Position numbers and translations under genes: made by a program. DNA of 64,000 nucleotides from Candidatus Binatus sp. (lineage in GTDB: Bacteria; Desulfobacterota; Binatia; Binatales; Binataceae): NCBI RefSeq assembly GCF_050013435.1, contig NZ_JBEKFG010000003.1, forward strand, positions 12,455-76,454, in the 5' to 3' direction. The notes under the pieces were generated by a model. The model ran no database searches. It was given only the letters and a program-made list of their open reading frames with translations, and was not told the origin of the DNA. Below, in pieces: positions 2,018 to 16,760 of this stretch (positions within the stretch are counted from its first letter, which is position 1; each line of letters begins with the position of its first letter).

Positions 2018-2469
2018 GCGAACGGGTGATCCTGTTAGTGGAAGACAACGCTGACGACGAAGCGCTGACGCTGCGCGCGCTCAAGAAGAACAACATCACC
2101 AACACGATCGTGGTCGCGCGCAACGGGGTCGAGGCGCTCGATTACCTCTTCGGCACGGGACAGTACGCGGGGCGCGACACCAGCGTCCAGCCGGAACTGA
2201 TTCTGCTCGATCTGAAGTTGCCCAAAGTGGACGGCTTCGAGGTGCTAAGGAAGCTGCGCGCGGATGAGCGGACGAAGCTGCTCGCCGTGGTTATTCTGAC
2301 CTCCTCCACTGAGCAGCAGGACATCGTCAACGGCTACGGCCTGGGCGCTAACAGCTACGTTCGCAAGCCGGTTGACTTTCAGCACTTCATGGACGCCGTC
2401 CGGCAGCTCGGCCTGTATTGGCTGGTCCTGAACGAAAGGCCGTTTGCCGGTCTCAGGAACGGCCGATGA
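2014..2469 (+). CDS. Single-domain response regulator (Rcp1-like)
   Basis: ILLVEDN, LLDLKLPKVDG, GANSYVRKPVDF; 4-bp overlap with the kinase. Confidence 0.9.
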   Translation: MSERVILLVEDNADDEALTLRALKKNNITNTIVVARNGVEALDYLFGTGQYAGRDTSVQPELILLDLKLPKVDGFEVLRKLRADERTKLLAVVILTSSTEQQDIVNGYGLGANSYVRKPVDFQHFMDAVRQLGLYWLVLNERPFAGLRNGR

Positions 2470-4865
2470 AGCAGTCGCGCCGCATCCTGATCGTCGAGGA
2501 CTCGGCGGACGATGCTGAGCTCGAGGTGCGGGCGCTCCGGCGCGATGGCTGCGACGTGACCTACCAGCGAGTTGATACGCCGGAAGCAATGCTGGCGGCG
2601 CTCGAAGGCGGCGGCTGGGATCTGGTCATCGCCGACTACTCGATGCCGCATTTCAACGGGCTCGCCGCATTGAAGATGCTGCGCGACAGAGGACTCGACC
2701 TGCCGTTTGTCCTGGTCTCGGGGACGGTGGGCGAGGAGCTGGCCGTCGAGGCCATGAAGTGCGGCGCGGATGACTACGTTTTGAAGAGCAACCTGGCGCG
2801 GCTGCCGCTCGCCGTCGAGCGCGAGCTGCGCGACTATGAAGAGCGAATCGGGCACCAGCGTGCCGAGGTCCGCTACCGCAGTCTCGTCGATCGCGTGCCG
2901 GTCGGATTGTACAGAATTTCTACCGAAGGAAATATTCTCGAGGCCAATCCGGCGATGGTCGAGATGCTGGGATTCAAAGACGCCGACAGTCTCAAATGCG
3001 CCAACATCGCGCAGCTGTGGCTGGACGCGGGGGAGCGCGCCCGGCTCGCGGCTATCATCGCAAAAGAGGGAGTGGTCCAGAACTTCGAAATGGGGATACG
3101 CCGGCCCGACGGCAGCGTCATCTGGTGCGAGCAGAGTGCGCGCGCTGTTTACGACGCAGCCGGCAAGGTCGAACACTACGAGGGGGTGATGCTGGATACC
3201 ACCAGCCGCAAGCGCGCCGGGGAAGAGGCCGATCGCGCCCGCGATGGAGTGCGTGACCTTGCGCTGGAAGCGGCCCGTCTGCGCTCGGAATTCCTGGCCA
3301 GCATGAGCCACGAGATTCGGACGCCATTGGCAGGAATCATCGGGGCCGGAGAGCTGCTGTCGCTTTCCGATTTGACTCCCGAGCAACGCCGCCAAACTGA
3401 GATCGTTCGGTCAAGCGGCGAGCTGTTGCTGACCACCGTCAACGACATACTCGACTTCTCGAAACTCGCAGCCGGCCGGGTCGTGCTGGAGAAACTTGAC
3501 TTCGACCTTGTCGAACTGACGGAAAGTCTAATCGATTCTTTTGCAGTGGCTGCTCGCGGCAAAGGGATCGAGCTTGCCCTGTATGTGGACGTGAACATGC
3601 CAAGCGGCTTGCGAGGCGATCCGAGCAGGCTGCGCCAGATTCTCAACAACCTGGTGTCGAATGCGATCAAGTTCACCGAGCACGGCGAAGTGATGGTCCG
3701 GGCAAACAGGGTGGAAGACACAGCCGACGATGTGCTGGTGCGCTTCGAGGTGTCCGACACGGGGATTGGAATTCCATTCGAGGCGCAGGGGCGCCTGTTT
3801 CAGCCATTTGTTCAGGCAGAAAGCTCGACGAGCCGGCGCTTCGGCGGCACCGGACTCGGCCTCGTCATCGCGGCCAGGCTGACCGATCAAATGGGCGGCG
3901 AGATAGGATTTGAAAGCGCGCCAGGAAAAGGATCGAACTTTCATTTCACCGCGCGACTCGAGAAGGGACTGGAGATTGTGCGTCCGTGGATGACTGCGAC
4001 AGCCACCTCATGCTTCAACGGGATACGCGCGTTGATCGTCAACGACAGTCCATCCAGTCGTCAAATCCTTTCCGAATACCTGACGTCGTGGGGAATTGAG
4101 AACGCGGCGGTCGGCAGCGGGGCCGAGGCCCTGGATATTTTGAAGCTGGCGCGGACCGCTGACGAGAAGCAAATCGTTGCGCTGATCGATGAACAGATAT
4201 CCGGCCTGAGCGCGCTCGGCCTCGCGCGTGCAATCAAGGAGCGCTCCGATATCAAAAATAGCAAGGTGATCATGCTTAGCGCGCAGCGCGCTGTGCGCAA
4301 TGCGACCGAAGTGGTGGATGCGTGGATTACAAAGCCGGTGCGTCCGTCGCACCTGTTCAGCTGCCTCCTCGAGTTATGCAGAAGTGCCGATGGCGTCAGC
4401 ACCAAGACCATCGCGGCCCCGCCGGCACCGAGCCCGATTGACAATGAACCGCCGCAATGGCGCAAGGCGGTACAGGTGCTGTTGGTGGACGACAATCTGG
4501 TGAATCGAACTATCGGGGCGCAGCAGCTTTCCGTCCTCGGCTACACGGCGGAAATCGTCGATGGGGCACGGCGAGGGTTGGAGTTCGTGTCGTGCCGGCG
4601 CCCCGATATTGTCTTGATGGACTGCGAAATGCCCGAGATGGACGGCTACCAGGCGGTCGCGGAGATCAGGCGGCGCGAAGGAAATACTCGGCACACCGTG
4701 GTAGTCGCGCTTACTGCTCACGCGACGGAAGGCGATCGGGCCCGATGCCTCGACGCCGGAATGGACGATTATCTGAGCAAACCCGTAAAGCTGCAGTCGC
4801 TTGCAAAAATGCTGGACATCTGGGCAAGCGGCAAGCTCGACCACATCCTCCCTTCGGCGCAGTAG
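2466..4865 (+). CDS. Hybrid histidine kinase (REC-PAS-HisKA-HATPase-REC-REC)
   Basis: N-terminal receiver; PAS; FLASMSHEIRTPL; NLVSNAIKFT; GGTGLGL; one degenerate and one canonical C-terminal receiver (LMDCEMPEMDG). ATG at 2466 overlaps the upstream stop. Confidence 0.9.
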   Translation: MKQSRRILIVEDSADDAELEVRALRRDGCDVTYQRVDTPEAMLAALEGGGWDLVIADYSMPHFNGLAALKMLRDRGLDLPFVLVSGTVGEELAVEAMKCGADDYVLKSNLARLPLAVERELRDYEERIGHQRAEVRYRSLVDRVPVGLYRISTEGNILEANPAMVEMLGFKDADSLKCANIAQLWLDAGERARLAAIIAKEGVVQNFEMGIRRPDGSVIWCEQSARAVYDAAGKVEHYEGVMLDTTSRKRAGEEADRARDGVRDLALEAARLRSEFLASMSHEIRTPLAGIIGAGELLSLSDLTPEQRRQTEIVRSSGELLLTTVNDILDFSKLAAGRVVLEKLDFDLVELTESLIDSFAVAARGKGIELALYVDVNMPSGLRGDPSRLRQILNNLVSNAIKFTEHGEVMVRANRVEDTADDVLVRFEVSDTGIGIPFEAQGRLFQPFVQAESSTSRRFGGTGLGLVIAARLTDQMGGEIGFESAPGKGSNFHFTARLEKGLEIVRPWMTATATSCFNGIRALIVNDSPSSRQILSEYLTSWGIENAAVGSGAEALDILKLARTADEKQIVALIDEQISGLSALGLARAIKERSDIKNSKVIMLSAQRAVRNATEVVDAWITKPVRPSHLFSCLLELCRSADGVSTKTIAAPPAPSPIDNEPPQWRKAVQVLLVDDNLVNRTIGAQQLSVLGYTAEIVDGARRGLEFVSCRRPDIVLMDCEMPEMDGYQAVAEIRRREGNTRHTVVVALTAHATEGDRARCLDAGMDDYLSKPVKLQSLAKMLDIWASGKLDHILPSAQ

Positions 4866-5836: not shown

Positions 5837-7078
5837 CTAATCGAACTGTTCGTCGGAGGGTTTGACGGCGCGGAACTGAATCAGCAATGCGATGTCGTAA
5901 ATTGTCTTGAGCGCGCCCGCGCAAATCAGCGGCCATCCAAATGACGAATGATTCAGCATCGCGCCCGCCGGCAACGGCGCCATCGCCGCTGCCAGGCTGC
6001 GCGGCACATTGGTCACCGTCGCCGCGGCCGCGCGCTCCTCGGGCGGCACCACCGCCATCACATACGACTGGCGCGCGGGAACGTCCATCTGCGAGGTCGA
6101 AAAGCGCAGCAGCAGAAATGTCATCGCCAGCCCCGGGGTCGGCATCAACGCCGCGACGATCAGCATGACGTTCGACGGCAGATGGCTGAACACCATCGTG
6201 TTGATCCGGCCGAACCGCGCCGAAAGCGCCGACGAAATAAACTGTGAAAACGAGCCAAGCAGTCCGGCCGCGAAAAAAAACGTGCCCGCCACTTGAACCG
6301 AGAGGTTGAAGCGCCGAAACAACCACAGCGCCAGCAGCGACTGAATTACGAATCCGCCGCCGAGCGAGTCGAGACTGAACAGCGCCGAGAGCCGCAGCAC
6401 GATTGCCCGCGACTTCGCCAGCGGCGCGGACCTGGCGGGCTGGCGCTCGACTTCGACGGCCGGGGAGAGACGCCGATAAACCGCGAACGCAATCACCGCG
6501 ATGATCGAGTATGCGACGAAGCCCGACCGCAGCGCCGGCGCGAGCGCCCATCCATGGCGCGCCGCGAGGATCGCCGGCACGCCACTGGCCAGCGCGCCAA
6601 ACGCACCAGCCGTCGCGCCCGCAACATTGTACAGCGCGAACATCGCGGTCAGATCGCGAGGCTCTGCGGCCTCGGCCAACGCCGCCTGTTCGACGGGCAG
6701 AAACAGGCTGACGTCGCCAGCCGATGGATTCAGCGTGCCGACGACCGCCACCACGAACAGCAGCCAGAAGCTCTCCGTGGTGGCGAATCCTATCCCCGTT
6801 GCCAGCATCAGCGCGCACGCCGCAAGCAGGACTCGACGCCGGCCCAGCCGATCGGTGGCCAGCCCCACCCATAGCGTTAACGCCGCCGAGCCCAGCAGCG
6901 TGCCAAACACGATTGCGCCGACGCGGAGCGGATTGAAGCCGATCGCGGTCAGGTAACTTGGCAACAATATGCTGACTGCCCCGTCGGCAAGGCCGCGCAG
7001 CGCGCGTGTCGCCAGCAGCAGCTTGGCGTCAGTCGTAGCGCTGCGCGGGAACCATCGACTGATCGGACTCACCCTCAT
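5837..7078 (-). CDS. MFS transporter
   Basis: About 12 hydrophobic segments; motif A GLATDRLGRRR. Start chosen at ATG 7078 (MRVSP) because the longer ORF overlaps the divergent RRE gene. Confidence 0.85.
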   Translation of the reverse strand: MRVSPISRWFPRSATTDAKLLLATRALRGLADGAVSILLPSYLTAIGFNPLRVGAIVFGTLLGSAALTLWVGLATDRLGRRRVLLAACALMLATGIGFATTESFWLLFVVAVVGTLNPSAGDVSLFLPVEQAALAEAAEPRDLTAMFALYNVAGATAGAFGALASGVPAILAARHGWALAPALRSGFVAYSIIAVIAFAVYRRLSPAVEVERQPARSAPLAKSRAIVLRLSALFSLDSLGGGFVIQSLLALWLFRRFNLSVQVAGTFFFAAGLLGSFSQFISSALSARFGRINTMVFSHLPSNVMLIVAALMPTPGLAMTFLLLRFSTSQMDVPARQSYVMAVVPPEERAAAATVTNVPRSLAAAMAPLPAGAMLNHSSFGWPLICAGALKTIYDIALLIQFRAVKPSDEQFD

Positions 7079-7277
7079 CTGGCCGAAACCTAACCCCCTA
7101 GCCCTTCCCAACGTGGGAAGCGGAACAATCGCATTGAGATGGTCTATAAGGCGCGCGCCGCCAAGGGAAGCCAATAGCATAACGCTCTGTTCGCCGATCC
7201 GCTGCTTGTGGCATACTCGTGGCCTCTGCGCGTGTTTTGGGGAGCAATCGTCCACGGCCATCCGAAGGGAAAACTTG

Positions 7278-7562
7278 ATGCGCGTCGAAATCAGCGATGG
7301 CGTCATATGGCGGGATCTCGGCGGCGACGTAGTCATCCTGAACGTCGAAACCGGCATCTACTTCGGCCTCGACGGCTCGGGTGGCCAGATATGGCGCGAA
7401 CTCGTCGAACACGGTTCCATTGAGAAAACCTTCGCGTCGCTAAAGCAGCAGTTCGATGCCGAGCCCGACGAATTACGCCGCGACCTCGACGCTCTCGTGG
7501 ATCAACTTGTCGAAAAGAGACTCGTGCATCTGATCGCCGAACGCAAAGGTCGTTTGCGATGA
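7278..7562 (+). CDS. PqqD-family RiPP recognition element (lasso B1 protein)
   Basis: 94 aa MRVEISDGVIWRDLGGDVVILNVETGIYFGLDGSGGQIW...LRRDLDALVDQLVEKRLV: the 3-strand/3-helix PqqD pattern, directly upstream of the cyclase. Confidence 0.9.
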   Translation: MRVEISDGVIWRDLGGDVVILNVETGIYFGLDGSGGQIWRELVEHGSIEKTFASLKQQFDAEPDELRRDLDALVDQLVEKRLVHLIAERKGRLR

Positions 7563-7608: not shown

Positions 7609-9561
7609 ATGAGCGGCATCGCGGTCCTCTATCAATGGGACGGTGCTCCAGCAGACCGCTCGACCGTCGAGCGGATGATTGAGGTCATCCCGTACCGCTC
7701 GGTTGACGGCTTCGGCGTATGGGGCAACGGCCCGGTCGCAATTGGGCATGCAAAGCTCCAGACGACGCCCGAAGCTTCGGCCGAGACCAGCCCGTTCGTG
7801 GACGAAGCCAGCGGGCTCGTTCTATCGATGGACGGGCGGGTGGATAACCACGACGAACTCGCGGCGGAGTTGAACTCGCATGGTCATCGTGTTCGCACGG
7901 GCACTGACGCAGAGATCATGCTTCGCGCCTGGCAGCGCTGGGGTGCCGAGGCGCCTGCGAGAGTCATAGGCGATTTCGCGTTCGCCTTATGGGACCCATC
8001 GAAGCGGACGCTCTTCTGTGCCCGGGATCCTCTAGGAGTGAAGAGCTTCTACTACTTCAATGGCCCGGGGTTCTTTCTGTGCGCCTCGGAGCTTCATCAA
8101 CTGTTCCAGGATCCAAGGGTCGTACAAAGACCGAACGAGCCTGCTGTAGCCGAGATGCTGGTGAGGCTCCCGGTTGATCGCGAGGAGACACTCTTCGAAG
8201 GTATCCGCCGCCTCGAGCCCGCGCATTATCTGAGCGTGAGCGCGCGTGGCGTGGAACGCCGGCGCTATTACGATCTGGACGCCTCACGGGAGATCACCTA
8301 TCGGAGCGACGACGAATACTCCGATCATTTTCTCTCACTGTTCAAGGAGGTGATGCGATGCCACCTTCGCAGCAACAAGGGAGTCGCCTCGGACCTGAGT
8401 GGCGGGCTTGATTCCGGATCGATTGTCTGTGTGACCGAACAACTACGCCGCGACGGCGAAGTGCAACTCCCGAATTTTGAGACCTTCACGGTTCGCTTCG
8501 ACACCGGACCCGCGGCCGAGGCTGAGTACGTCGAAGAGGTCTTGCATAAGTATCCTCATCGCCATACCTACGTTCCTCCAGGCATGGCCCCGCTCGGCCA
8601 ACTCATTGCCCAGGTTGCGCACTACCTGGACCTTCCGGATTTTCCCAACTCTGTATGCGCCGATTACACGCCGCTGCTTGGCAATCGTAACGACCTGAGA
8701 GTTCGGCTGACCGGTCTGGGCGGCGACGAGTGGTTTGGCTCGACCTACGCTGCATACGCCGACCTGTTGAAGCAGTTTCGCATCGTCGCGCTGTTGCGCA
8801 CGCTGCGGATTGATCGAAACCAACCGGCCGGATTCGCGCCTTTTCCGGGCTATGCCAATGCTCTGGTGCGGTATGGAGTCTTGCCACTCGTGCCCTACCG
8901 CCTCAAAGCGGCGCTCAGGCCATGGCTGCGTCGCCCGCCCGAGCCTCCCGCGCTGGTCGTACCCGCGTTCGCGGCCAGGATGAAACTCATGGACCGGCTG
9001 TCTGCGAGGCAGCCGTGGCCCCGATGCCGCAGCTTCGCGCAGCAGCTCCTCTACCAGGGCTACTCGTCCGGATGGCTCTCGTACGCGCTCGAGATGGACG
9101 CGCGCTGGACCGCGGGCTTTCGACTGGAGGGACGCAGTCCCTTGCTGGACCGCCGGATACTCGAGTTTGCCTTCGCCATACCTGATAACCAGCGCTTCAG
9201 GCCCGGCGTTAGCAAGTTCGTGTTGCGCAATTCGATGCGCGGAATCCTGCCGGAGCGAATCCGGCGGCGGTCTTCCAAGGCTGACCTGACGGAGTTACAC
9301 CCGATGGCGCTAATCGCGCTTGGTGGAGAGCGGCTGTTCGATCGCCTCAACGTCGTCAAAAACGGATGGGTCGACGGAGTTGCTGTGCGCAGGCTCTACC
9401 GCTCGATGGCTGAGGCGTTTTCGCGCCGCGATCCCTCCTACATGGAGAATGTCCTGGAACTATGGAATATCTTTGCGGTCGAACTCTGGCTCAACGTGGT
9501 GTTTCTCGGTATCAGCGAGCCTTTCAAGCACATAACCGAAACCAGCGCAGCGGCTTTGTGA
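7609..9561 (+). CDS. Asparagine synthetase-like lasso peptide cyclase (C protein)
   Basis: AsnB-like; PP-loop LSGGLDS, GLGGDE, RSPLLDRR. N-terminus is MSGIA, lacking the glutaminase Cys. Clustered with RRE and precursor. Confidence 0.85.
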   Translation: MSGIAVLYQWDGAPADRSTVERMIEVIPYRSVDGFGVWGNGPVAIGHAKLQTTPEASAETSPFVDEASGLVLSMDGRVDNHDELAAELNSHGHRVRTGTDAEIMLRAWQRWGAEAPARVIGDFAFALWDPSKRTLFCARDPLGVKSFYYFNGPGFFLCASELHQLFQDPRVVQRPNEPAVAEMLVRLPVDREETLFEGIRRLEPAHYLSVSARGVERRRYYDLDASREITYRSDDEYSDHFLSLFKEVMRCHLRSNKGVASDLSGGLDSGSIVCVTEQLRRDGEVQLPNFETFTVRFDTGPAAEAEYVEEVLHKYPHRHTYVPPGMAPLGQLIAQVAHYLDLPDFPNSVCADYTPLLGNRNDLRVRLTGLGGDEWFGSTYAAYADLLKQFRIVALLRTLRIDRNQPAGFAPFPGYANALVRYGVLPLVPYRLKAALRPWLRRPPEPPALVVPAFAARMKLMDRLSARQPWPRCRSFAQQLLYQGYSSGWLSYALEMDARWTAGFRLEGRSPLLDRRILEFAFAIPDNQRFRPGVSKFVLRNSMRGILPERIRRRSSKADLTELHPMALIALGGERLFDRLNVVKNGWVDGVAVRRLYRSMAEAFSRRDPSYMENVLELWNIFAVELWLNVVFLGISEPFKHITETSAAAL

Positions 9562-9637: not shown

Positions 9638-10777
9638 ATGTCTTTGATGCTGGATGAGCATCGCCTGTATCTTTCCGACCTGACCCGAACCTCATTGTTT
9701 CGACGGGCGATCAACGCGGTGGTCAAGCCGGGCGATGTCGTGCTCGACATCGGCTGTGGAACTGGGGTGCTTGGCCTGCTCGCGATGAAGGCCGGAGCCG
9801 CAAGGGTGTACCAGATTGACCAATCGCCCATGATCCAGGTCGCCCGCGACGTGGCATCTGCCAATGGTTACGGGCAAAGCACGATCGGGATTCACGAACG
9901 CTCCGGTCGTGCCAAGCTTCCCGAAAAGGCCGACGTCGTCGTTGCCGATCAGCTGAGCCACTTCGGAATTGGCGCCGGGATGCCCGAGGTATTCAACGAC
10001 GCCCGCCGGCGTCTCCTCAAGCCGGGCGCCCGCGCGATCCCTCGACGCATCGAACTCTTCGTCGTCCCGGTGAATTTCCCCGACATGTGGCGCATCGCCA
10101 GCTTCTGGGACAAACGCCATGCGGGGCTGAAGATGTCGTCGGCACGCAGTATTGCATTCAATACCGTTTACCCCAGCGAGAAGAGCCCGCGCCGGATGCT
10201 GGGCAAACCCGCGCGGATGTTCAGCTTTGACCTTACGGAGCTGACGCCGGAACGTTTCTCTGCCAAGGCCGCGATCGAGGTTTCAGCGGCCGGCGTTATG
10301 CACGGTCTCAGCGGATGGTTCGTTGCCGAACTGGCGCCGGGCGTGATCATGACCAATTCGCCCTTTCGCAAAAGCCGAATCCAACGGTCCGCCGCGTTCT
10401 TTCCGGTCGAGAAGCCTTTAGCGCTGAGCAAGGGGGATCGCCTGGATATCACGATGACTGCTATCAGCACGCAGAACCTCCTTAGCTGGAAGGTGGAGGT
10501 CTTCAATACCAAGGGTAGGGAAAAAGCACGGTATGTTCATTCCACGCTCAAGGGAATGTCACTCATGCCTGAAGAATTGGCGAAGACACGACCAGACTTT
10601 GTGCCACGGCTGTCGGATTGGGGTGCGGCGCGAAGATCAGTGATGAACCTGGCCGATGGAACACGTATACTGGCCGAAATAGAAAGGGAAATGCTCCGAC
10701 TTCACTCGGATCTTTTCCCATCAATAGCCCATGCGTCGGAGTACGTCACCAAGGTTCTCATGACTGACTTGACCTAG
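9638..10777 (+). CDS. Class I SAM methyltransferase, PRMT-like fold, with C-terminal RRE-like helical extension
   Basis: H..YLSD..RT..F..AI, VLDIGCGTGVL, LLKPG..IP, HGLSGWF..EL: PRMT-like architecture. Confidence 0.8.
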   Translation: MSLMLDEHRLYLSDLTRTSLFRRAINAVVKPGDVVLDIGCGTGVLGLLAMKAGAARVYQIDQSPMIQVARDVASANGYGQSTIGIHERSGRAKLPEKADVVVADQLSHFGIGAGMPEVFNDARRRLLKPGARAIPRRIELFVVPVNFPDMWRIASFWDKRHAGLKMSSARSIAFNTVYPSEKSPRRMLGKPARMFSFDLTELTPERFSAKAAIEVSAAGVMHGLSGWFVAELAPGVIMTNSPFRKSRIQRSAAFFPVEKPLALSKGDRLDITMTAISTQNLLSWKVEVFNTKGREKARYVHSTLKGMSLMPEELAKTRPDFVPRLSDWGAARRSVMNLADGTRILAEIEREMLRLHSDLFPSIAHASEYVTKVLMTDLT

Positions 10778-10899: not shown

Positions 10900-10953
10900 G
10901 TAACCTGACGTTCTGATGCGAGGCGAGATGCAATTGGAGTTTAGGGGTTGGAG

Positions 10954-11124
10954 ATGACCAAAAAAATTAAGATAGACGGGCAGAAGCCTCGGACGCAGAG
11001 CGTCAAGAAACCTTATGCCCGTCCTCATCTCGTAGAGTACGGCAACGTGGCAAAGCTCACAGCTTCGGGTGGGACTGCTACTCCGGTTGACTCCATGTCA
11101 GGCATGACCGGACCCCCGATGTGA
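10954..11124 (+). CDS. Lasso peptide precursor (A), 56 aa; not in the ORF track
   Basis: Manual translation MTKKIKIDGQKPRTQSVKKPYARPHLVEYGNVAKLTA|SGGTATPVDSMSGMTGPPM*. Leader motif YxxPxLxxxGxxxxxT with Thr at -2; Asp at core position 9. Confidence 0.92.
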   Translation: MTKKIKIDGQKPRTQSVKKPYARPHLVEYGNVAKLTASGGTATPVDSMSGMTGPPM

Positions 11125-11192: not shown

Positions 11193-12299
11193 TTGTCAAT
11201 ATCACAGTCGGCTGCGGTGCCTGCGCAAGAGAGCCGGCACAATCGGGCGTTGAGGCAAATCGAACGGTCTCAACCGGAAATTTCCTGGGCGTCGCGAACC
11301 GTCACTGACCCAAGCAAAACACCGATCCCGGTCTTTCGACAGCACGCTTACGGGCTGCGAATCGTTACAGACATCCCGCTTCCGGAGCTTGCCGCAATTC
11401 GGGTGTCGTCGGTCAGGTCGGCGATTCGTGCGACTCTTGGCGGCCGCTTTCAGCGCATCCGCCTCAATCCCCGATGGTACCTGCGTTCGCGGCTTCCAGG
11501 CGGCGGGACTTGGCTGCGCTGCGGCAAGACCGAGGGTGGCTACGTACTCTCCTTTGCTAACATCGCCGACTTTATCATTGACAGCTCCGGAAGCCAGGTA
11601 GTCTGCTGCAACGCGAGCAGCGACGTTAGCCTCGAGACCATTCGTCATCTCCTGATTGACCAGGTGCTTGCGCTGATCGTAAACCTGCGCGGCCGGGAGG
11701 CCCTGCACGCTACTGCGGTCGCGACGCACAGCGGCGTTTGCGCATTCACGGGGCCCGCAGGGTCGGGCAAGTCAACGCTCGCCGCGAGCTTCGTCCTATC
11801 GGGATATCCGCTGGTCTGCGATGATTGCCTGGCGCTTTCCGAAGGTAAAACGATTACGGCGCTCCCCGGTTATCCGGGCCTGCGGCTGTGGGATGATTCG
11901 ATACGCGCGCTCGGCGCAAGTTCACGGAATCTGAAGCCGGTTGCGCACTATACGACGAAATCGCGCTGGCAAGACCACTCGCGACGCGCCGACTTCTGCT
12001 CGACGACACGCCGACTCGCGCGCATCTATCTGCTCGAGCGCGCGCGATCGAGCAAACGCGCAGCCCGCGTCCTGATCGAGGAGCTCGCTCCCGGCGAGGC
12101 GCTGATGGGGCTGGTCAAGGCGGCCTACAGGCTCGACATCACCGACCAAGCGATGCTGACGCGTCAGTTCCAGTTCCTGTCCCGCGTCGCCGAGCGCGTC
12201 CCGGTCAAACGCCTGATCGTGCCCAACGAATTTTCCGCACTCTCCGATGTAAGACAGGCGGTGCTGCGCGACTTGAGCAATCGCCGGCCGCCCCGCTGA
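11193..12299 (+). CDS. HPr kinase-related P-loop kinase (putative lasso peptide kinase)
   Basis: LHATAV, Walker A GPAGSGKST, LVCDD, PGYPGLRLW. Start codon (TTG) uncertain. Confidence 0.8.
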   Translation: MSISQSAAVPAQESRHNRALRQIERSQPEISWASRTVTDPSKTPIPVFRQHAYGLRIVTDIPLPELAAIRVSSVRSAIRATLGGRFQRIRLNPRWYLRSRLPGGGTWLRCGKTEGGYVLSFANIADFIIDSSGSQVVCCNASSDVSLETIRHLLIDQVLALIVNLRGREALHATAVATHSGVCAFTGPAGSGKSTLAASFVLSGYPLVCDDCLALSEGKTITALPGYPGLRLWDDSIRALGASSRNLKPVAHYTTKSRWQDHSRRADFCSTTRRLARIYLLERARSSKRAARVLIEELAPGEALMGLVKAAYRLDITDQAMLTRQFQFLSRVAERVPVKRLIVPNEFSALSDVRQAVLRDLSNRRPPR

Positions 12300-12408: not shown

Positions 12409-13395
12409 TCAGAACGTGACCAGCGGAATGCAGGCGGGACTCGACACGCCGTCGGCGTTGGCCGTGCCCCAGTCATTGCCGACCCACTGATTGTCGCCGC
12501 ACGTGCTGCTCGCGTCGTGGAGATCGTAGCCGCTTGTTACACCATTGCCCGATGCCTTGATGAGGTAGACCACATCATCAGTGGTCTTTTCACTTGCATC
12601 CAGGAAAATTCCGTCACCCTGGTTACCGGTGACCGCGGGTGTAGTAGTCGTCCCTATGGGCGCATCGCCCACCCGAACATCGGAATTGGAGCCGCAACCA
12701 GACGTGCAGCCTACGTGAACACCAGCGCCGCCGTTATCCGTCGCTGTGAATACGTTGATCCTCGCGCCGCTCGAGTGTGTTATAAGCACGCCGTCGGCGC
12801 CATTGCTTGAAGCGTCGAAGTCAGTAGCTATGCACTCATCGGTGCATTGATTGAAGTAAACACCCTGCTTGGTGTTGCTGTCCGCGGCAAAATTGGACCA
12901 CGTCGACGTCGCTCCGCCCGACGTGCCGTTCAGCTCCAGCCCGATTTGGTTGTCCTCCAGGGTGACGTTATCGCCAATGCTATTGTTCGACTGATCCAGG
13001 ATGCCATATTTAAACCCGGAGATTGTGCTATTAAAGCCTTCGATCACGTCATTATCGGCTGCGCTTGTGATATTGATTCCCGCTCCAGTCGAGGTCGCCC
13101 CAGGGCCCGTGATGCTGTAACCGAAGAGATCCAGGGTGCTGTTGCTGCCAGTCATATTGATACAGGTGCCGGTGCCAGACTCCGTGAGGTCGTTCGCCAG
13201 CTGATAGATAGTGTCGCTCCCGCTCAGCGTCCCACACGCGGTGACGGAGGTGGGATCTACAGCGTTCGCAGACGCATGATGCTTCTTCGCCCAAGCGGCC
13301 TGTGGGCCAGTCAGGACCAGCGCTACCGTCAAAGCAAGAAAAGATACGCCAGGAGCGCCTATTCTCCGAAAAAACCCTCTTTTGATCGCCTTCAT
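12409..13395 (-). CDS. Secreted right-handed beta-helix (pectin lyase-like) repeat protein
   Basis: Signal peptide ending AWA; repeats such as SNTKQGV, SNGADGV, DNGGAGV, GNQGDGI; several Cys; AAGGAG RBS before ATG 13395. Confidence 0.7.
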   Translation of the reverse strand: MKAIKRGFFRRIGAPGVSFLALTVALVLTGPQAAWAKKHHASANAVDPTSVTACGTLSGSDTIYQLANDLTESGTGTCINMTGSNSTLDLFGYSITGPGATSTGAGINITSAADNDVIEGFNSTISGFKYGILDQSNNSIGDNVTLEDNQIGLELNGTSGGATSTWSNFAADSNTKQGVYFNQCTDECIATDFDASSNGADGVLITHSSGARINVFTATDNGGAGVHVGCTSGCGSNSDVRVGDAPIGTTTTPAVTGNQGDGIFLDASEKTTDDVVYLIKASGNGVTSGYDLHDASSTCGDNQWVGNDWGTANADGVSSPACIPLVTF

Positions 13396-13757
13396 ATCGT
13401 TTATGCTCCTTCGCTTTTCTTTCGTCTTCCCTAACGACACATCATTCGTAGTGGCGTCTTCGCAACCCTTGCTCTTGGAGGTTTATTCAGAACCTGCCGA
13501 AGTAGACTTGGCAATGGTTTACGACCGACGGCGCATCATTCCATTTCGCCTGTCTTCAGTCAAGTGGTTCTATGACGCCCGTTGACGGCTTTGTTGTTCG
13601 ATTTTAGTCGTTAGATGTCGTAGATTAGGCTCAGCGACGAAAATCTCTACAAGTTGTTATTCTATCGCCCACAAAACGAAAGCGGCTGTCACCGATAGAT
13701 ACACTTGTAAGCCGTACTTGGTTCCAGCTCGCGCCTGGGGCTGTTATTGATAATTCC

Positions 13758-14969
13758 GTGGAATTCGACTCCCTCCTCGACCTTGCCGACTTGCCCATCG
13801 AAGCGGCGCTCGTGCTGTGCTGCGCGACAACCGCGGCCACGCCCGTGCGCACGGAGCTCGCGTCCGACCTTGCGCCGCGCGTACGCAGTTGGGACCGCGT
13901 CGTCGATATCGCCAAACGTCATGCGGTGCTCCCGCTGGTACATCGCTATCTGAAGCTCGAATGTCCGACCGCGGTTCCGGGTGAAGGGCTTGCGAAGCTG
14001 CGGACGCAGTGGCAGATGATCATTCTCTACAACCGTCATCTGACCGCCGAACTTGTGCGCCTGATGGGCCTGCTGAAAGCGGCCGGAGTTCCGGCGGTCA
14101 CCTTCAAGGGCCCGGTGCTTGCCGCGATGGCATACGGATCGATCGAACTTCGCCAGTTCAGCGATCTGGATATTCTCGTGCGTCAGACTGACCTGCCGCG
14201 GGTCGCCGAAATACTCACCGCCGAACGATATTTGTCGCCGCATACCAGGCGCGAAGGCCTCGCCACCGGCTACTTTCAGGAGTACGAGGACGCCTTCGCC
14301 GGACCCGACGGGCTGGGCGCCGTGGACGTTCATTGGGACCTCACGCCGCGCTCGTTCCGTTTCGCCCCCGACGAGGAAGGCCTGTGGCGGCGCGCGCACG
14401 AGGTCGATCTGGAGCTCGGCAAAGTGATGGCGATCGCGCCCGACGACCTGTTGCTGTACATCTGCGTGCACGCCGCGAAGCATGGATGGGTCACGCTCGG
14501 ATCGATCTGCGATGTCGCCGAGACCGTTCGGGCCCGTCCGGAAATCGATCTGATGGGGATACTTGACGAGGCAGCCGCGCTCGGGAGCCGCCGAATGTTC
14601 CTGACCGGCATCTGGCTGGCGCACGAGCTGGCCGGCGCGCCGATTCCCGCCGATCTTGTCCGGCTGGCTCGCGGCGACCGCGCCGCCCGGGCATTGGCAG
14701 GACGCGTCGCGGGGCAACTGTTCAGCGGAGCCACGCAGGGACGGGCAGACTTCGATCCGTGGGCGGTTCCGATCCGCTCGATCGAGGGCGCACGCGCGCG
14801 AATCCGCTACATCGTCCGCCGAATGCTGGCGCCGACGATGGGCGACTACGAACTCATCCCGCTGCCGGCAGCGCTCTTTCCGCTCTACTGGGTGATTCGG
14901 CCGTTTCGGATGGCGGTGCAATACGGGCCGCGGCTGGTCCGCGGCTCTTCGAAGAGCTCGAACACGTGA
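13758..14969 (+). CDS. Nucleotidyltransferase family protein (NTP_transf_5-like, lasso-cluster associated)
   Basis: FKGPVLA..AYG..LRQFSDLDILV, VDVHW, LLYICVHAAKH motifs. Confidence 0.85.
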   Translation: MEFDSLLDLADLPIEAALVLCCATTAATPVRTELASDLAPRVRSWDRVVDIAKRHAVLPLVHRYLKLECPTAVPGEGLAKLRTQWQMIILYNRHLTAELVRLMGLLKAAGVPAVTFKGPVLAAMAYGSIELRQFSDLDILVRQTDLPRVAEILTAERYLSPHTRREGLATGYFQEYEDAFAGPDGLGAVDVHWDLTPRSFRFAPDEEGLWRRAHEVDLELGKVMAIAPDDLLLYICVHAAKHGWVTLGSICDVAETVRARPEIDLMGILDEAAALGSRRMFLTGIWLAHELAGAPIPADLVRLARGDRAARALAGRVAGQLFSGATQGRADFDPWAVPIRSIEGARARIRYIVRRMLAPTMGDYELIPLPAALFPLYWVIRPFRMAVQYGPRLVRGSSKSSNT

Positions 14970-15536: not shown

Positions 15537-16760
15537 ATGCGCCTACATGAGTACTCGGCGAATGGATCGTCGGTCGCGACTGCGAGGCAGAATCTTGGCG
15601 CCCAGCCGTTGGACGCAACGTCCGAGTGGTTGAGCCTGGCGGAACTTGCGCACGGGTCGGAACGGATCGGCGGGGCGGTGGTGCGGTCGGCGCACGCGCG
15701 CAAAATACTCAAAACCATTTCACGCTTGAGTCCGTACAAGTCGACCGTGCTGATTCACGGCGAATCCGGAACCGGCAAGGAACTGGTCGCGCGCGCGCTG
15801 CATACGATGGGCTCGGCGCCAAACGGCCCGTTCGTGACCTTCAATTGCTCCAACCTGGTCGATTCGCTGGCAGAGTCGCAGCTTTTCGGTCATGTGCGCG
15901 GCGCATTCACCGATGCCCGCGAGGATTCGCTCGGCTATTTCCGCTCCGCCAGTGGCGGAACTCTATTTCTGGACGAAGTCGGCGAGCTTCCGCTGCACCT
16001 GCAGCCCAAGCTGCTGCGCGCGCTCGATACCCACGAGATTCAGCCGGTCGGTTCGTCACGCACCTACTCGGTTGATATCCGGCTGGTCGCGGCAAGCAAT
16101 CGCAACCTGCACGCGATGGTCAAGGCGGGGCAATTCCGCGACGACCTCTACTACCGGCTTAACGCGGCGGCAATCCTGGTTCCGCCGCTTCGCGACCGGC
16201 GCGAGGCAATCCCGGCCTTCATCGCTCATTTTATCGAGCACTTCAACCGCCTGTTCGGCAAAGATATAAAGCTCGTATCGCGGACCGCCGTGGACGCGCT
16301 GTGCGCCAACCAGTGGCCCGGCAACGTCCGCGAGCTTGGCCATGCAATCGAGAGCGCGGTTCTGATGACCGAAACTGATCGTATCGATCTCCACGACCTG
16401 CCTTTGCGCCACGACGATGCGAATCCGCAAGTGCTGGTCGAGCCGGTCGGGAAGGTGCTGCAAAACGGCGGGCTCAATCTCGAAGGCGGGCACAATAGCG
16501 CCGGGATTGACTGCGAGAAGGCGTCGCAGCGGTGCTTCGAAATGGCGACCTGGCCTTACTCGCTCGACGCGGTAATCCGCGAGGCCTCGAAACTCGCGCT
16601 GGTTCGCGCGCTGCAAGCGACCCAGGGCAATTGCCATCGTGCGGCCGAGCTGCTGGGCGTATCGCGCTACACGGTTTACCGAATGCTGAACCGGTTTGGC
16701 CTGGGCGAAGGCCATACCTACCGGACGCTGCGCAAGTCGACGGTACGCCGCGCGTCCTGA
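15537..16760 (+). CDS. Sigma54-dependent transcriptional activator (AAA+ plus Fis HTH), no obvious sensory domain
   Basis: GESGTGKE, ESQLFGHVRGAFTDA, LFLDEVGE, WPGNVREL; C-terminal AAELLGVSRYTVYR. Confidence 0.9.
   Translation: MRLHEYSANGSSVATARQNLGAQPLDATSEWLSLAELAHGSERIGGAVVRSAHARKILKTISRLSPYKSTVLIHGESGTGKELVARALHTMGSAPNGPFVTFNCSNLVDSLAESQLFGHVRGAFTDAREDSLGYFRSASGGTLFLDEVGELPLHLQPKLLRALDTHEIQPVGSSRTYSVDIRLVAASNRNLHAMVKAGQFRDDLYYRLNAAAILVPPLRDRREAIPAFIAHFIEHFNRLFGKDIKLVSRTAVDALCANQWPGNVRELGHAIESAVLMTETDRIDLHDLPLRHDDANPQVLVEPVGKVLQNGGLNLEGGHNSAGIDCEKASQRCFEMATWPYSLDAVIREASKLALVRALQATQGNCHRAAELLGVSRYTVYRMLNRFGLGEGHTYRTLRKSTVRRAS

What the first reader, a model, noticed from the sequence alone, without database searches (positions are those of the whole stretch)
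9638..10777. PRMT-fold methyltransferase with remodelled active site and RRE-like tail, next to a core with no Arg
Seen: the PRMT double-E loop (SEWMGYxLxxE) reads ADQLSHFGIGAG, and the THW loop region reads TNSPFRKSRIQR. The C-terminal VMNLADGTRILAEIEREMLRLHSDLFP...EYVTKVL resembles the helical part of PqqD/RRE domains. The predicted core contains no Arg or Lys. Inference: a leader-guided methyltransferase acting on a non-Arg acceptor (Ser/Thr, Met sulfur, C-terminal carboxyl, backbone amide or phosphate), which would be new RiPP chemistry.
Basis: partly seen in the sequence, partly recalled or inferred. Interest (0 to 1): 0.8.

Follow-up and report, generated by a model that had tools for sequence, protein, structure and literature searches.

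The report
PRMT-fold methyltransferase tailoring a lasso peptide
This gene encodes an enzyme shaped like eukaryotic arginine methyltransferases but lacking half of their arginine-binding residues; it belongs to a large unstudied bacterial family that sits beside a peptide kinase in lasso-peptide gene clusters and travels with sulfur-rich peptide tails, so it probably adds an unusual, still unidentified methyl mark.

Summary
The gene (9638-10777, +) is real. It has a confident PRMT fold and lies in a lasso-peptide operon: PqqD, cyclase, methyltransferase, precursor, HprK-like kinase, and a nucleotidyltransferase further on. The leader protease is on another contig.

The core has no Arg or Lys.

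All 80 of 80 genome loci holding a homolog carry lasso genes, and 77 of 80 hold the kinase.

The RRE-like tail is only weakly supported. It is a three-helix bundle without the beta-sheet. PqqD is its best structural match, but at Z 5.1, within noise. Profile comparisons are negative.

New here: methyltransferase-linked cores have Met/Cys in the tail in 150 of 152 cases and end in Cys-Leu/Ile in 128 of 152. For kinase-type clusters without the enzyme the figures are 1 of 11 and 0 of 11.

My best reading is methylation of the peptide tail, on sulfur or on the C-terminal carboxylate. The acceptor is unproven.

I found no PRMT-type lasso enzyme in print. This scan has noted the family before on other DNA: 25 notes in at least 17 genomes.

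The parts
7272..7562 (+). Discrete PqqD-family protein (lasso B1-type RRE), first gene of the operon
   Evidence: Pfam PqqD 1.5e-16. NCBIfam lasso_PqqD models are the best hits but fall below their cut-offs.
7609..9561 (+). Lasso cyclase (asparagine-synthetase-like, C protein)
   Evidence: Pfam Asn_synthase 1.4e-39 plus GATase_7. The best NCBIfam hit is the lasso isopeptide cyclase model, E 1.6e-124, 416.9 bits, under its 525-bit cut-off.
9638..10777 (+). PRMT-fold SAM-dependent methyltransferase, 379 aa (the finding)
   Evidence: Pfam PrmA 2.8e-12 and PRMT_C 5e-9. PDB phmmer gives PRMT2 and PRMT6 at about 2e-21. AF2 mean pLDDT is 87.7. Foldseek top hits are all PRMTs, E 3e-26, TM 0.65-0.71. 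dN/dS is 0.19-0.26 against relatives.
9944..9979 (+). Loop equivalent to the PRMT double-E loop, reading ADQLSHFGIGAG (D104 kept, second Glu absent)
10352..10387 (+). Loop equivalent to the PRMT THW loop, reading TNSPFRKSRIQR (THW replaced by R-I-Q)
10544..10777 (+). Conserved linker plus C-terminal three-helix domain of the methyltransferase (residues 303-379)
   Evidence: AF2 of the tail alone gives pLDDT 94.8 with three helices. The best, weak, structural match is the helical half of PqqD, Z 5.1. A profile of the tail finds 778 proteins at E<=0.001. The top 150 are C-termini of about 380-aa methyltransferases or fragments.
10948..11124 (+). Lasso precursor peptide. Leader carries YxxPxL...KLT-A; the core is at 11065-11121.
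   Evidence: Weak, below-cut-off NCBIfam lasso peptide and leader hits. Homologous precursors lie beside the methyltransferase in the related loci. It is the only precursor-profile hit in the genome, E 3.6e-18. Core translated.
11193..12299 (+). HprK-related peptide kinase
   Evidence: NCBIfam HprK_rel_A 2.4e-9, below cut-off. Weak PDB hits to HPr kinases. Present in 77 of 80 genome loci that hold the methyltransferase.
13758..14969 (+). PF14907 nucleotidyltransferase, a frequent companion of lasso kinases
   Evidence: Pfam NTP_transf_5 3e-58. Present in 49 of 80 loci.
12409..13440 (-). 343-aa protein of unknown family between kinase and nucleotidyltransferase. Membership in the system is uncertain.
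   Evidence: No Pfam, NCBIfam or PDB match. Homologs lie beside the cluster in close relatives L001-L006 and L039 and in 6 of 80 metagenome loci.

Best explanation
The gene encodes a SAM-dependent tailoring methyltransferase of a kinase-type lasso-peptide pathway. It is built on the protein-arginine-methyltransferase fold, but it no longer methylates arginine.

Most likely it acts on the Met/Cys-rich C-terminal tail of the core peptide. In most of the family that would mean the penultimate Cys of a conserved C-terminal Cys-Leu, or the terminal carboxylate next to it. In this window the core ends in Met and has three Met and no Cys. Here the candidates are a Met thioether, giving a sulfonium as in longipeptin A, or the C-terminal carboxylate.

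Within tail-directed methylation I put sulfur at about 0.35 and the carboxylate at about 0.25.

The HprK-like kinase that always accompanies the enzyme probably phosphorylates the conserved ring Ser/Thr, as BsfK does.

Shown: the fold, the SAM-binding motifs, the altered arginine pocket, the genomic linkage, purifying selection, and the association with sulfur-rich tails.

Inferred: that the peptide is the substrate, which atom is methylated, that the enzyme acts on the linear precursor, and how it finds the peptide (through its own helical tail or through the discrete PqqD proteins).
For: Fold and cofactor site.
- Pfam PRMT_C, PDB phmmer and Foldseek all point to PRMTs.
- Motif I Gly residues, D37, R17 (the equivalent of the SAM-carboxylate Arg) and D/E61 are kept in 81-82 of 82 members.

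Not arginine.
- The second Glu and the THW motif are absent in the window.
- The window core has no Arg or Lys.
- Only 31 of 84 linked cores have Arg. Of 55 cores whose enzyme has Glu at position 112, 28 have no Lys or Arg.

Pathway membership.
- Of 80 genome loci, 80 have at least one lasso gene, 77 the kinase and 74 the cyclase.
- Of 80 metagenome loci, many of them short, 67 have the cyclase and 64 the kinase.
- One 691-aa protein fuses methyltransferase and kinase.

The gene is in use. dN/dS is 0.26, 0.22 and 0.19 against L001, L039 and L002.

Link to the tail.
- Of 152 methyltransferase-linked cores, 150 have Met or Cys in the tail, with a mean Met+Cys fraction of 0.27, and 128 end in Cys-Leu/Ile.
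- Of 11 cores from kinase-type lasso clusters without the enzyme, 1 has Met or Cys in the tail (mean fraction 0.01) and 0 end in Cys-Leu/Ile.
- Those 11 include a same-family genome (L162) and the neighbouring cluster on the L039 contig.
- Ring Ser/Thr occurs in 83 of 84 methyltransferase-linked cores. By eye it is also there in most of the 11 cores of clusters without the enzyme (printed, not counted). This fits the kinase rather than the methyltransferase.

Chemical fit (inference). Retained acidic residues, D104 in 81 of 82 and E/D112 in 68 of 82, suit a thiol or a cationic sulfonium product better than an anionic acceptor.

Precedents.
- Met13 sulfonium in the tail of the lasso peptide longipeptin A (PMC10664482, passages read).
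- BsfK phosphorylates ring Ser3, helped by B1 (PMC10368454, passages read).
Against: - No direct evidence that the peptide is methylated at all.
- No single sulfur residue is universal. Cys is absent from this window's core and from 24 of 152 linked cores. Met is absent from the tail in 17 of 152. Two linked cores have no sulfur in the tail (L007, L178).
- The comparison of clusters with and without the enzyme is small. It rests on 11 precursors from 8 loci plus one neighbouring cluster. In 9 further enzyme-less loci, and in L173 with its partial methyltransferase-like hit, no precursor was recognised.
- That comparison is not corrected for shared ancestry, and the precursor search used a profile built from methyltransferase-linked precursors.
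- Arg251 tracks the Cys-Leu end in raw counts (19/111/3/17 of 150). After phylogenetic control only about 3 of 8 independent pairs agree, 0.3 disagree, and sign-test p is about 0.25.
- In the window's subclade position 112 is Gly, so the argument from two acidic residues is weaker here.
- Sulfur-rich tails could serve the peptide's own function, for example metal binding, and be unrelated to the enzyme's chemistry.
Confidence: 0.55

Rival explanations
1. The enzyme methylates the phosphate that the neighbouring kinase puts on the ring Ser/Thr, giving a methyl phosphodiester. That would explain why it never occurs without the kinase.
For: - The kinase is present in 77 of 80 genome loci with the enzyme. 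The 3 exceptions stop at or close to a contig end.
- The kinase gene usually follows directly: 57 of 77 kinase reading frames begin within -1400 to +400 bases of the methyltransferase stop.
- There is one methyltransferase-kinase fusion.
- Kinase clusters exist without the enzyme, but not the reverse, in what I searched.
- Ring Ser/Thr is the one side-chain nucleophile common to 83 of 84 cores.
- Extra basic residues lie near the pocket by alignment: R9 in 79 of 82, and H or R at position 108 in 67 of 82.
Against: - The pocket keeps acidic residues (D104 in 81 of 82, E/D112 in 68 of 82), which should repel a phosphate (inference).
- Kinase-type clusters that lack the enzyme also have ring Ser/Thr, so what changes with the enzyme is the tail, not the ring.
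- The nucleotidyltransferase is the partner already known to build on the phosphate in pseudomycoidin (reviews PMC9266682 and PMC8498205, passages read).
- I know of no precedent in peptides (recalled).
Confidence: 0.1
2. It is still an arginine or lysine N-methyltransferase. It acts on basic residues where the core has them, or on the invariant Lys at -4 of the leader.
For: - The PRMT fold.
- Most of the family keeps two acidic loop residues.
- 48 of 84 cores have Lys or Arg.
- Lys at -4 of the leader is invariant in 45 of 45 aligned precursors.
Against: - The window's core has no Lys or Arg, yet the gene is under purifying selection.
- 36 of 84 cores have neither residue.
- The THW motif is missing. 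By alignment the protein starts only seven residues before the conserved His, so the N-terminal helix that caps the PRMT pocket also appears to be missing.
- Methylating a leader that is then discarded has no obvious use (inference).
Confidence: 0.05
3. The enzyme does not modify the lasso peptide. It methylates another protein, for example as self-protection of the peptide's cellular target or to regulate the kinase or PqqD. Alternatively it is a non-catalytic scaffold that uses its helical tail to assemble the tailoring complex.
For: - Public records name relatives as ribosomal protein L11 methyltransferase, and Pfam PrmA is the best single hit.
- PRMTs are protein methyltransferases.
- The tail weakly resembles the C-terminal winged-helix domain of rickettsial protein lysine methyltransferases.
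- The conserved linker shares a P...P.L..[YWF]G pattern with the leaders (49 of 82 enzymes, 45 of 81 leaders). This could be a handle for a PqqD protein.
Against: - The enzyme is linked to the kinase and precursor rather than to a transporter or a target gene.
- The SAM-binding residues are conserved, which speaks against a scaffold.
- Its presence tracks a property of the core peptide.
- The linker-leader pattern was noticed after the fact, and hhalign does not align the two.
Confidence: 0.1
4. It methylates some other position of the peptide: a ring Ser/Thr hydroxyl, an Asn/Gln side chain or a backbone amide.
For: Ring Ser/Thr is near-universal. Backbone and side-chain N-methylation occur in other RiPPs (review PMC11285071, passages read).
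Against: - Some cores have a single hydroxyl residue that the kinase presumably needs. L014's core has one Ser and no Thr.
- These features do not distinguish clusters with the enzyme from those without it.
Confidence: 0.12

Closest known systems
Eukaryotic type I protein arginine methyltransferases (PRMT6, PRMT2, PRMT1, CARM1)
   Same: Rossmann domain, beta-barrel and dimerisation arm. Motif I, the acidic residue after it, and the Arg that binds the SAM carboxylate are present. The first acidic residue of the double-E loop is kept as Asp.
   Different: The second Glu is absent here. THW is replaced by R-I-Q. The N-terminal capping helix is not present. A conserved linker and three-helix tail are added. 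The context is bacterial, inside lasso clusters, and the linked peptide has no Arg.
Bsf cluster of Bradymonas sediminis (bsfA, B1, B2, C, K, N, D) and paeninodin/pseudomycoidin-type phosphorylated lasso peptides
   Same: A lasso cluster with a split B protein, an HprK-like kinase and a nucleotidyltransferase. BsfK phosphorylates a ring Ser, and the ring Ser/Thr is conserved here as well (PMC10368454, passages read).
   Different: Those clusters have no methyltransferase (bsf gene list). BsfA ends in Asp and the others in Ser, not in Met/Cys-rich tails. In this genome B2, a second PqqD and the ABC exporter lie on another contig.
LopH and longipeptin A (Met S-methylation to a sulfonium in a lasso peptide tail)
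   Same: A methyl on a tail Met of a lasso peptide is the chemistry I consider most likely for this window (PMC10664482, passages read).
   Different: LopH is only a candidate enzyme, and its fold is different: its best structural match is the SAM-binding domain of MTHFR, according to the paper. That cluster has P450s and no kinase. No sequence comparison with LopH was made here.
StspM/LasF C-terminal carboxyl O-methyltransferases (lassomycin type)
   Same: A lasso tailoring methyltransferase acting at the C-terminus of the linear precursor. This is my second candidate chemistry (PMC9266682 and PMC8498205, passages read).
   Different: StspM was modelled on mitomycin 7-O-methyltransferase, with a His/Glu catalytic pair. 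The window protein's Pfam and fold hits are PRMT and PrmA only.
PIMT-type TceM/LihM (aspartimide-forming lasso methyltransferases)
   Same: A SAM-dependent lasso tailoring enzyme with an extra C-terminal domain.
   Different: A different family: no PCMT hit. Those enzymes need a free Asp in the ring, whereas the only acidic residue of this core is the one needed for the macrolactam.
PqqD / RRE domains (PF05402; lasso B1 proteins such as TbiB1, 5v1u, and 6jx3)
   Same: The three helices of the tail superpose best on the helical half of PqqD 3g2b: Z 5.1, rmsd 2.2 A over 49 residues. Lasso B1 structures rank 13 and 23, at Z 4.2 and 4.0.
   Different: The tail has no three-stranded sheet. No Pfam hit exceeds the cut-off in 0 of 50 tails. 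hhalign probability is under 1%. The scores lie in the chance band.

Membership tests
Type I protein arginine methyltransferase (PRMT) | Rossmann SAM-binding domain followed by a beta-barrel with a dimerisation arm | tested here: met
   Pfam PRMT_C 5e-9 over residues 139-274. The listed Foldseek matches are all PRMTs, best E 3e-26, and PRMT1 1ori gives TM 0.71/0.84 at rmsd 3.0 A. The model's mean pLDDT is 87.7.
Type I protein arginine methyltransferase (PRMT) | SAM-binding residues: motif I GxGxG, an acidic residue after strand 2, and Arg on the N-terminal helix | tested here: met
   G41 in 82 of 82, G43 in 80 of 82, D37 in 82 of 82, D/E61 in 81 of 82 and R17 in 82 of 82. Aligned to PRMT2 and PRMT6.
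Type I protein arginine methyltransferase (PRMT) | Double-E loop with two Glu that hold the guanidinium | tested here: not met
   The window reads ADQLSHFGIGAG, with Asp at the first position and Ala/Gly at the second. Across the family, D104 is kept in 81 of 82 and position 112 is E/D in 68 of 82.
Type I protein arginine methyltransferase (PRMT) | THW loop | tested here: not met
   THW aligns to R-I-Q. Position 248 is I, V, L or M in 82 of 82.
Type I protein arginine methyltransferase (PRMT) | An arginine in the substrate | tested here: not met
   The only precursor core in the genome has no Arg. 31 of 84 linked cores have Arg. Other cellular substrates were not tested.
RiPP recognition element (PqqD-like, PF05402) | Match to the PqqD profile | tested here: not met
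   No hit for the window tail at E up to 10. 5 of 50 family tails hit, best E 0.014 and none significant. hhalign against the clusters' PqqDs gives probability 0.2-0.7%, with a control at 100%.
RiPP recognition element (PqqD-like, PF05402) | Winged helix with a three-stranded beta-sheet, whose third strand together with helix 3 forms the leader cleft | tested here: not met
   The AF2 models show three helices and no sheet in residues 303-379. This rests on models, not on a solved structure.
RiPP recognition element (PqqD-like, PF05402) | Structural similarity above background | tested here: inconclusive
   3g2b ranks first in both searches, but with Foldseek E 1.5 and Z 5.1. The tool states that Z under 8, or under 13 for helical bundles, may reflect only a common arrangement.
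RiPP recognition element (PqqD-like, PF05402) | Binds the leader peptide | not testable with these tools
   Needs a binding assay.
Lasso peptide biosynthetic cluster (context) | Precursor with a YxxPxL leader, Thr at -2, and Asp/Glu at core position 7-9 | tested here: met
   The leader ends in KLT-A, and the core has S1 and D9. Weak NCBIfam lasso hits, below cut-off. It aligns with 44 related precursors.
Lasso peptide biosynthetic cluster (context) | Cyclase, RRE (B1) and leader peptidase (B2) | tested here: met
   Cyclase and PqqD are in the window. B2 (PF13471, 7.2e-23) is not in the window but on contig C19, next to a second PqqD and an ABC exporter.
StspM/LasF-type C-terminal carboxyl O-methyltransferase | Small-molecule O-methyltransferase fold (mitomycin 7-O-methyltransferase-like) with a His/Glu catalytic pair | tested here: not met
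   No such Pfam family among the 12 hits, and the fold is PRMT. The definition comes from PMC9266682. No direct comparison with StspM was made.
PIMT-type lasso methyltransferase (TceM/LihM) | PCMT-family catalytic domain and a free Asp in the ring | tested here: not met
   No PCMT hit. The core has a single acidic residue.

The most novel reading that the evidence does not exclude
A PRMT-fold enzyme has been repurposed in bacteria as a peptide S-methyltransferase. It caps the penultimate Cys of a conserved C-terminal Cys-Leu. In lineages such as this one, which have lost the Cys, it turns a tail Met into a sulfonium. It would define a widespread, phosphorylated, Met/Cys-rich class of lasso peptides, seen in records labelled Binataceae, Nitrospira, Acidobacteriota, Rokuibacteriota (also labelled Methylomirabilota) and Actinomycetota. 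Their thioether-rich tails might bind soft metals such as Cu(I).
Probability: 0.3. Interest if true: 0.8.

Novelty: new variant of a known kind. Interest (0 to 1): 0.6.

Why it matters
Lasso peptides are valued scaffolds. Each new tailoring enzyme adds chemistry that can be moved to other peptides.

Two types of lasso methyltransferase have been shown to work: the StspM-type C-terminal O-methyltransferase and the PIMT type. LasF (of the StspM type) and LopH are proposed only. None of them has a PRMT fold.

This family is large. At least 226 clusters at 50% identity carry its specific tail at E<=1e-10, and it spans several phyla of mostly uncultured soil and water bacteria.

If it methylates sulfur or the C-terminus of a phosphorylated lasso peptide, it would show how the arginine-methyltransferase fold was adapted to a new acceptor. 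It would also open a new class of Met/Cys-rich lasso peptides whose function is unknown.

The comparative rule found here turns a vague lead into a concrete mass-spectrometry experiment. The rule is that the enzyme goes with sulfur-rich tails and the kinase goes with the ring Ser/Thr.

Tried and rejected
- Complex prediction of methyltransferase, SAM and precursor. The tool gave no answer (score 0.05, mark 0.32), so this is evidence neither way.
- Pfam on the window tail alone found nothing.
- hhalign of the tail against the clusters' PqqDs, in two set-ups, gave under 1% probability.
- A profile search with the tail against 1.84 billion representatives. The top 150 are the same methyltransferase family or fragments of it. 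Whether discrete PqqDs sit among the unlisted weak hits could not be seen.
- Protein Atlas on the tail. The best named lead was the PKMT C-terminal winged-helix domain at 0.80, below the tool's own level of trust.
- A leader-like motif in the linker. The pattern is rare: 2 hits in 3.3 million residues of the genome's six-frame ORFs, one of them this gene. It was chosen after the fact, and hhalign does not align linker and leader. I keep it only as an observation.
- Covariation of Arg251 with the Cys-Leu end. It is strong in raw counts but not significant on independent pairs.
- Arginine as acceptor was rejected on the core sequences.
- Cys as the sole acceptor was rejected. This window and its relatives L001 and L039 lack Cys, yet the gene shows dN/dS of 0.22-0.26.
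- Literature. Searches for 'lasso peptide' with 'arginine methyltransferase', 'PRMT', 'methyltransferase'+'HPr kinase', 'methyltransferase'+'kinase'+'nucleotidyltransferase', 'methyltransferase' from 2023, and 'methionine-rich', and for 'RiPP'+'protein arginine methyltransferase'+'precursor peptide' found no description of this enzyme type.
- The metanodin paper (PMC12670498, passages read) cloned soil lasso clusters 'encoding phospho- or methyltransferases'. The passages I saw report a product only from another cluster. Its figures and supplements were not seen, so I cannot tell whether those clusters belong to this family.
- Two papers were not held: the paeninodin study and a 2024 lasso review.
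Distances from conserved residues to the SAM methyl could therefore not be measured.
Full report
WHAT IS THERE. Window 9638-10777 (+) is an intact 379-aa ORF. It lies in a same-strand run of genes separated by short gaps:
- a discrete PqqD protein (7272-7562, Pfam PqqD 1.5e-16);
- an asparagine-synthetase-like lasso cyclase (7609-9561);
- the methyltransferase;
- a 58-aa precursor (10948-11124);
- an HprK-related kinase (11193-12299).

After one gene on the opposite strand comes a PF14907 nucleotidyltransferase (13758-14969). The leader peptidase B2 is not in the window. The genome's only PF13471 match lies on contig C19, next to a second PqqD and an ABC exporter. The genome is 94% complete. 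It holds one precursor, one cyclase, one kinase and one close copy of this methyltransferase.

THE OBSERVATION.
- The fold is PRMT. Pfam gives PRMT_C 5e-9 and PrmA 2.8e-12. PDB phmmer gives 80 distinct sequences at E<=0.01, and the 60 listed are PRMT-type methyltransferases, best PRMT2 and PRMT6 at about 2e-21. AF2 mean pLDDT is 87.7. The listed Foldseek matches are all PRMTs, with best E 3e-26 and TM 0.65-0.71 on the query.
- In 82 family members, D104 (the first Glu position) is kept in 81. Position 112 is Glu in 56, Asp in 12, Gly in 7 (the window's subclade) and Asn in 7. THW is replaced by R/x-I-x. R250 corresponds to the Lys after THW in PRMTs, so it is not a new feature.
- The core, SGGTATPVDSMSGMTGPPM, has no Arg or Lys.

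THE TAIL. Residues 303-379 form a conserved linker and three helices.
- PqqD (3g2b) is the top match in both fold searches. Foldseek gives E 1.5. VIA-align gives Z 5.1, rmsd 2.2 A over 49 residues. These values are inside the band that the tool calls common for helical bundles. Lasso B1 structures rank 13 and 23.
- There is no beta-sheet.
- Pfam finds nothing in the window tail. In 50 family tails it gives only sub-threshold hits: HTH_47 in 6, PqqD in 5, PKMT_2nd in 2.
- hhalign against the clusters' own PqqDs gives under 1%, while PqqD against PqqD gives 100%.
- A profile of the tail finds 778 proteins at E<=0.001. The top 150 are C-termini of this methyltransferase family, or fragments of it.

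I conclude that the tail is a small helical, winged-helix-like domain specific to this family. Kinship with RREs is possible but not shown.

CONTEXT ELSEWHERE.
- The family is large: 1637 hits at E<=0.001 among 8000 scored candidates. Most of the 120 listed are full-length proteins at 45-92% identity.
- Of 600 pattern matches in one genome per species, 351 encode relatives. The best 80 were fetched. Their records are labelled Candidatus Binataceae or Deltaproteobacteria, Nitrospira, Acidobacteriota, Rokuibacteriota and others.
- Of these 80 loci, 80 carry at least one lasso gene, 77 the kinase, 74 the cyclase, 67 a PqqD, 53 B2 and 49 the nucleotidyltransferase.
- The three loci without a kinase (L006, L049, L078) stop at or close to a contig end.
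- L036 and L050 have 8 kb upstream of the methyltransferase without a cyclase.
- Eighty metagenome loci, many of them short, give cyclase in 67 and kinase in 64.
- One 691-aa protein joins methyltransferase and kinase. It may be a gene-calling artefact.

WHAT DOES IT METHYLATE?
- Arg or Lys cannot be the general answer. Of 84 cores, 48 have Lys or Arg and 31 have Arg. Enzymes with Glu at position 112 are paired with Lys/Arg-free cores in 28 of 55 cases.
- The ring Ser/Thr is near-universal (83 of 84). By analogy with BsfK, which phosphorylates ring Ser3 of BsfA and is helped by B1 (PMC10368454, passages), I assign it to the kinase.
- The striking feature is the tail. 69 of 82 precursors from the genome loci end in Cys-Leu after a Met-rich stretch.

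To ask whether this goes with the enzyme or with the kinase, I searched 401 genomes of the window's phylum for the kinase and found it in 21. I then searched the 20 other kinase-bearing genomes for the methyltransferase family. Strong, kinase-adjacent matches occurred in 3, plus one partial. I fetched 20 kinase regions.

Precursors were recognised in 8 loci without the enzyme (10 precursors). To these I added the enzyme-less neighbouring cluster on L039. In 9 further enzyme-less loci, and in L173 with its partial methyltransferase-like hit, no precursor was recognised, and these were dropped.

Result:

| Cores | n | Met/Cys in tail | Mean Met+Cys fraction of tail | End in Cys-Leu/Ile |
|---|---|---|---|---|
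| Linked to the enzyme | 152 | 150 | 0.27 | 128 |
| Kinase clusters without it | 11 | 1 | 0.01 | 0 |

Counting the 135 unique linked cores gives 133 with Met/Cys in the tail and 112 ending in Cys-Leu/Ile.

The closest contrasts point the same way. L162 comes from the same family as the window, has the gene order C-A-K-N with no methyltransferase anywhere in a 97%-complete genome, and has a sulfur-free core. The two neighbouring clusters of L039 are the second contrast.

Caveats. The sample is small. The rows are related. The precursor profile was built from enzyme-linked precursors. There are two exceptions (L007, L178).

THIS WINDOW. Its lineage (window, L001, L039, and L082-L085 from metagenomes) has lost the Cys-Leu end but keeps Met near the C-terminus. 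The gene is under purifying selection, with dN/dS 0.26, 0.22 and 0.19 against L001, L039 and L002. Cys therefore cannot be the only acceptor.

Position 251, next to the THW-equivalent loop, is Arg in 111 of 128 enzymes with Cys-Leu/Ile cores but in only 3 of 22 without. On phylogenetically independent pairs, about 3 of 8 agree and 0.3 disagree, p about 0.25. This is a lead, not a result.

MECHANISM I COMMIT TO. Methylation directed at the tail (0.55). Within it, sulfur is the likeliest acceptor (about 0.35): Cys thiol in most members and Met thioether here. The terminal carboxylate is second (about 0.25).

The acidic residues retained in the pocket fit a thiol that needs a base, or a cationic sulfonium product, better than an anionic acceptor. 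This is inference, because I could not measure distances: no coordinates are available.

Met S-methylation in a lasso tail has one precedent, longipeptin A, whose candidate enzyme LopH has a different fold (PMC10664482, passages; review PMC11285071, passages).

Rivals are methyl phosphate on the ring Ser/Thr (0.10), another peptide position (0.12), a non-peptide substrate or scaffold role (0.10), and Arg/Lys (0.05).

KNOWN VERSUS NEW. The lasso methyltransferases shown to work are the StspM-type C-terminal O-methyltransferase and the PIMT-type TceM/LihM. LasF and LopH are proposed only (PMC9266682, PMC8498205, PMC13352647 and PMC11285071, passages). None has a PRMT fold. Seven full-text searches found no description of a PRMT-type RiPP enzyme. 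Supplements and figures were not seen, and subscription papers are not searched.

This scan has noted the family before on other DNA: 25 notes in at least 17 genomes, and one look-alike of this very gene. Those notes agree on the fold, the kinase linkage and the non-arginine reading. None that I saw reports the link to sulfur-rich tails.

VERDICT. The feature is real. It is a new variant of a known kind, a lasso tailoring methyltransferase. Its chemistry is undetermined and possibly new. Interest 0.6.

Noticed in passing
window 10948-11124; loci L001-L161: Most precursors beside this methyltransferase end in Cys-Leu after a Met-rich tail. The count is 69 of 82 in genome loci, and 128 of 152 overall when the Cys-Ile ends of L139 are included. 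The window's own lineage has lost the Cys-Leu but keeps Met. No paper mentioning such lasso tails was found. Function is unknown; thioether- and thiol-rich tails suggest soft-metal binding, which is speculation.
   Followed up: partly
L081 (own genome, contig C19): 1898-2227 (-), 1471-1914 (-), 3-1517 (-): The leader peptidase B2, a second PqqD and an ABC exporter lie on a different contig from the rest of the lasso genes. In other Binataceae loci (L006-L011) the order is PqqD2-B2-PqqD-cyclase, so many clusters carry two discrete PqqD proteins.
   Followed up: partly
window 12409-13440 (-): A 343-aa protein with a hydrophobic, signal-like N-terminal segment has no Pfam, NCBIfam or PDB match. 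Homologs sit beside the cluster in L001-L006 and L039, with three tandem copies in L003, and in 6 of 80 metagenome loci.
   Followed up: partly
L036 and L050 (records labelled Nitrospira): Precursor, methyltransferase, kinase and nucleotidyltransferase are present, but no cyclase or PqqD lies within the 8 kb upstream. Either the core genes are elsewhere or these peptides are not lassoed.
   Followed up: no
P0269 (691 aa) and P0271 (977 aa): P0269 joins methyltransferase (residues 1-358, 45% identity) and kinase (residues 386-689, 32% identity) in one reading frame, with the last helix of the tail missing. It may be a true fusion or a frameshift. P0271 carries Asn-synthase and PRMT_C domains, a cyclase-methyltransferase fusion at 28% identity.
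   Followed up: partly
window 10592-10624 (methyltransferase residues 319-329) and precursor leader 11005-11037: The linker of the enzyme and the leader share the spaced pattern P...P.L..[YWF]G. It occurs in 49 of 82 enzymes and 45 of 81 leaders. It has only 2 hits in 3.3 million residues of the genome's six-frame ORFs, one of them this gene. It was noticed after the fact and hhalign does not support it. It could be a leader-like handle for a PqqD protein.
   Followed up: partly
methyltransferase residue 251 (window 10388-10390): Arg251 is kept in 111 of 128 enzymes whose peptide ends in Cys-Leu/Ile, but in only 3 of 22 whose peptide does not. The window has Ser here. The association is not significant on independent pairs.
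   Followed up: yes
window 5837-7357 (-): An MFS transporter lies divergently upstream of the operon. Close homologs flank the cluster in L001 and L025. It may be the exporter here in place of an ABC transporter.
   Followed up: no
window 15537-16760 (+) and 2418-4865 (+): A sigma-54 activator lies downstream; a similar gene lies at the same place in L001 and after the cluster in L024 and L116. A hybrid histidine kinase/response regulator lies upstream. Both are possible regulators and were not examined.
   Followed up: no
Its kinase match contains one in-frame TGA.
   Followed up: no
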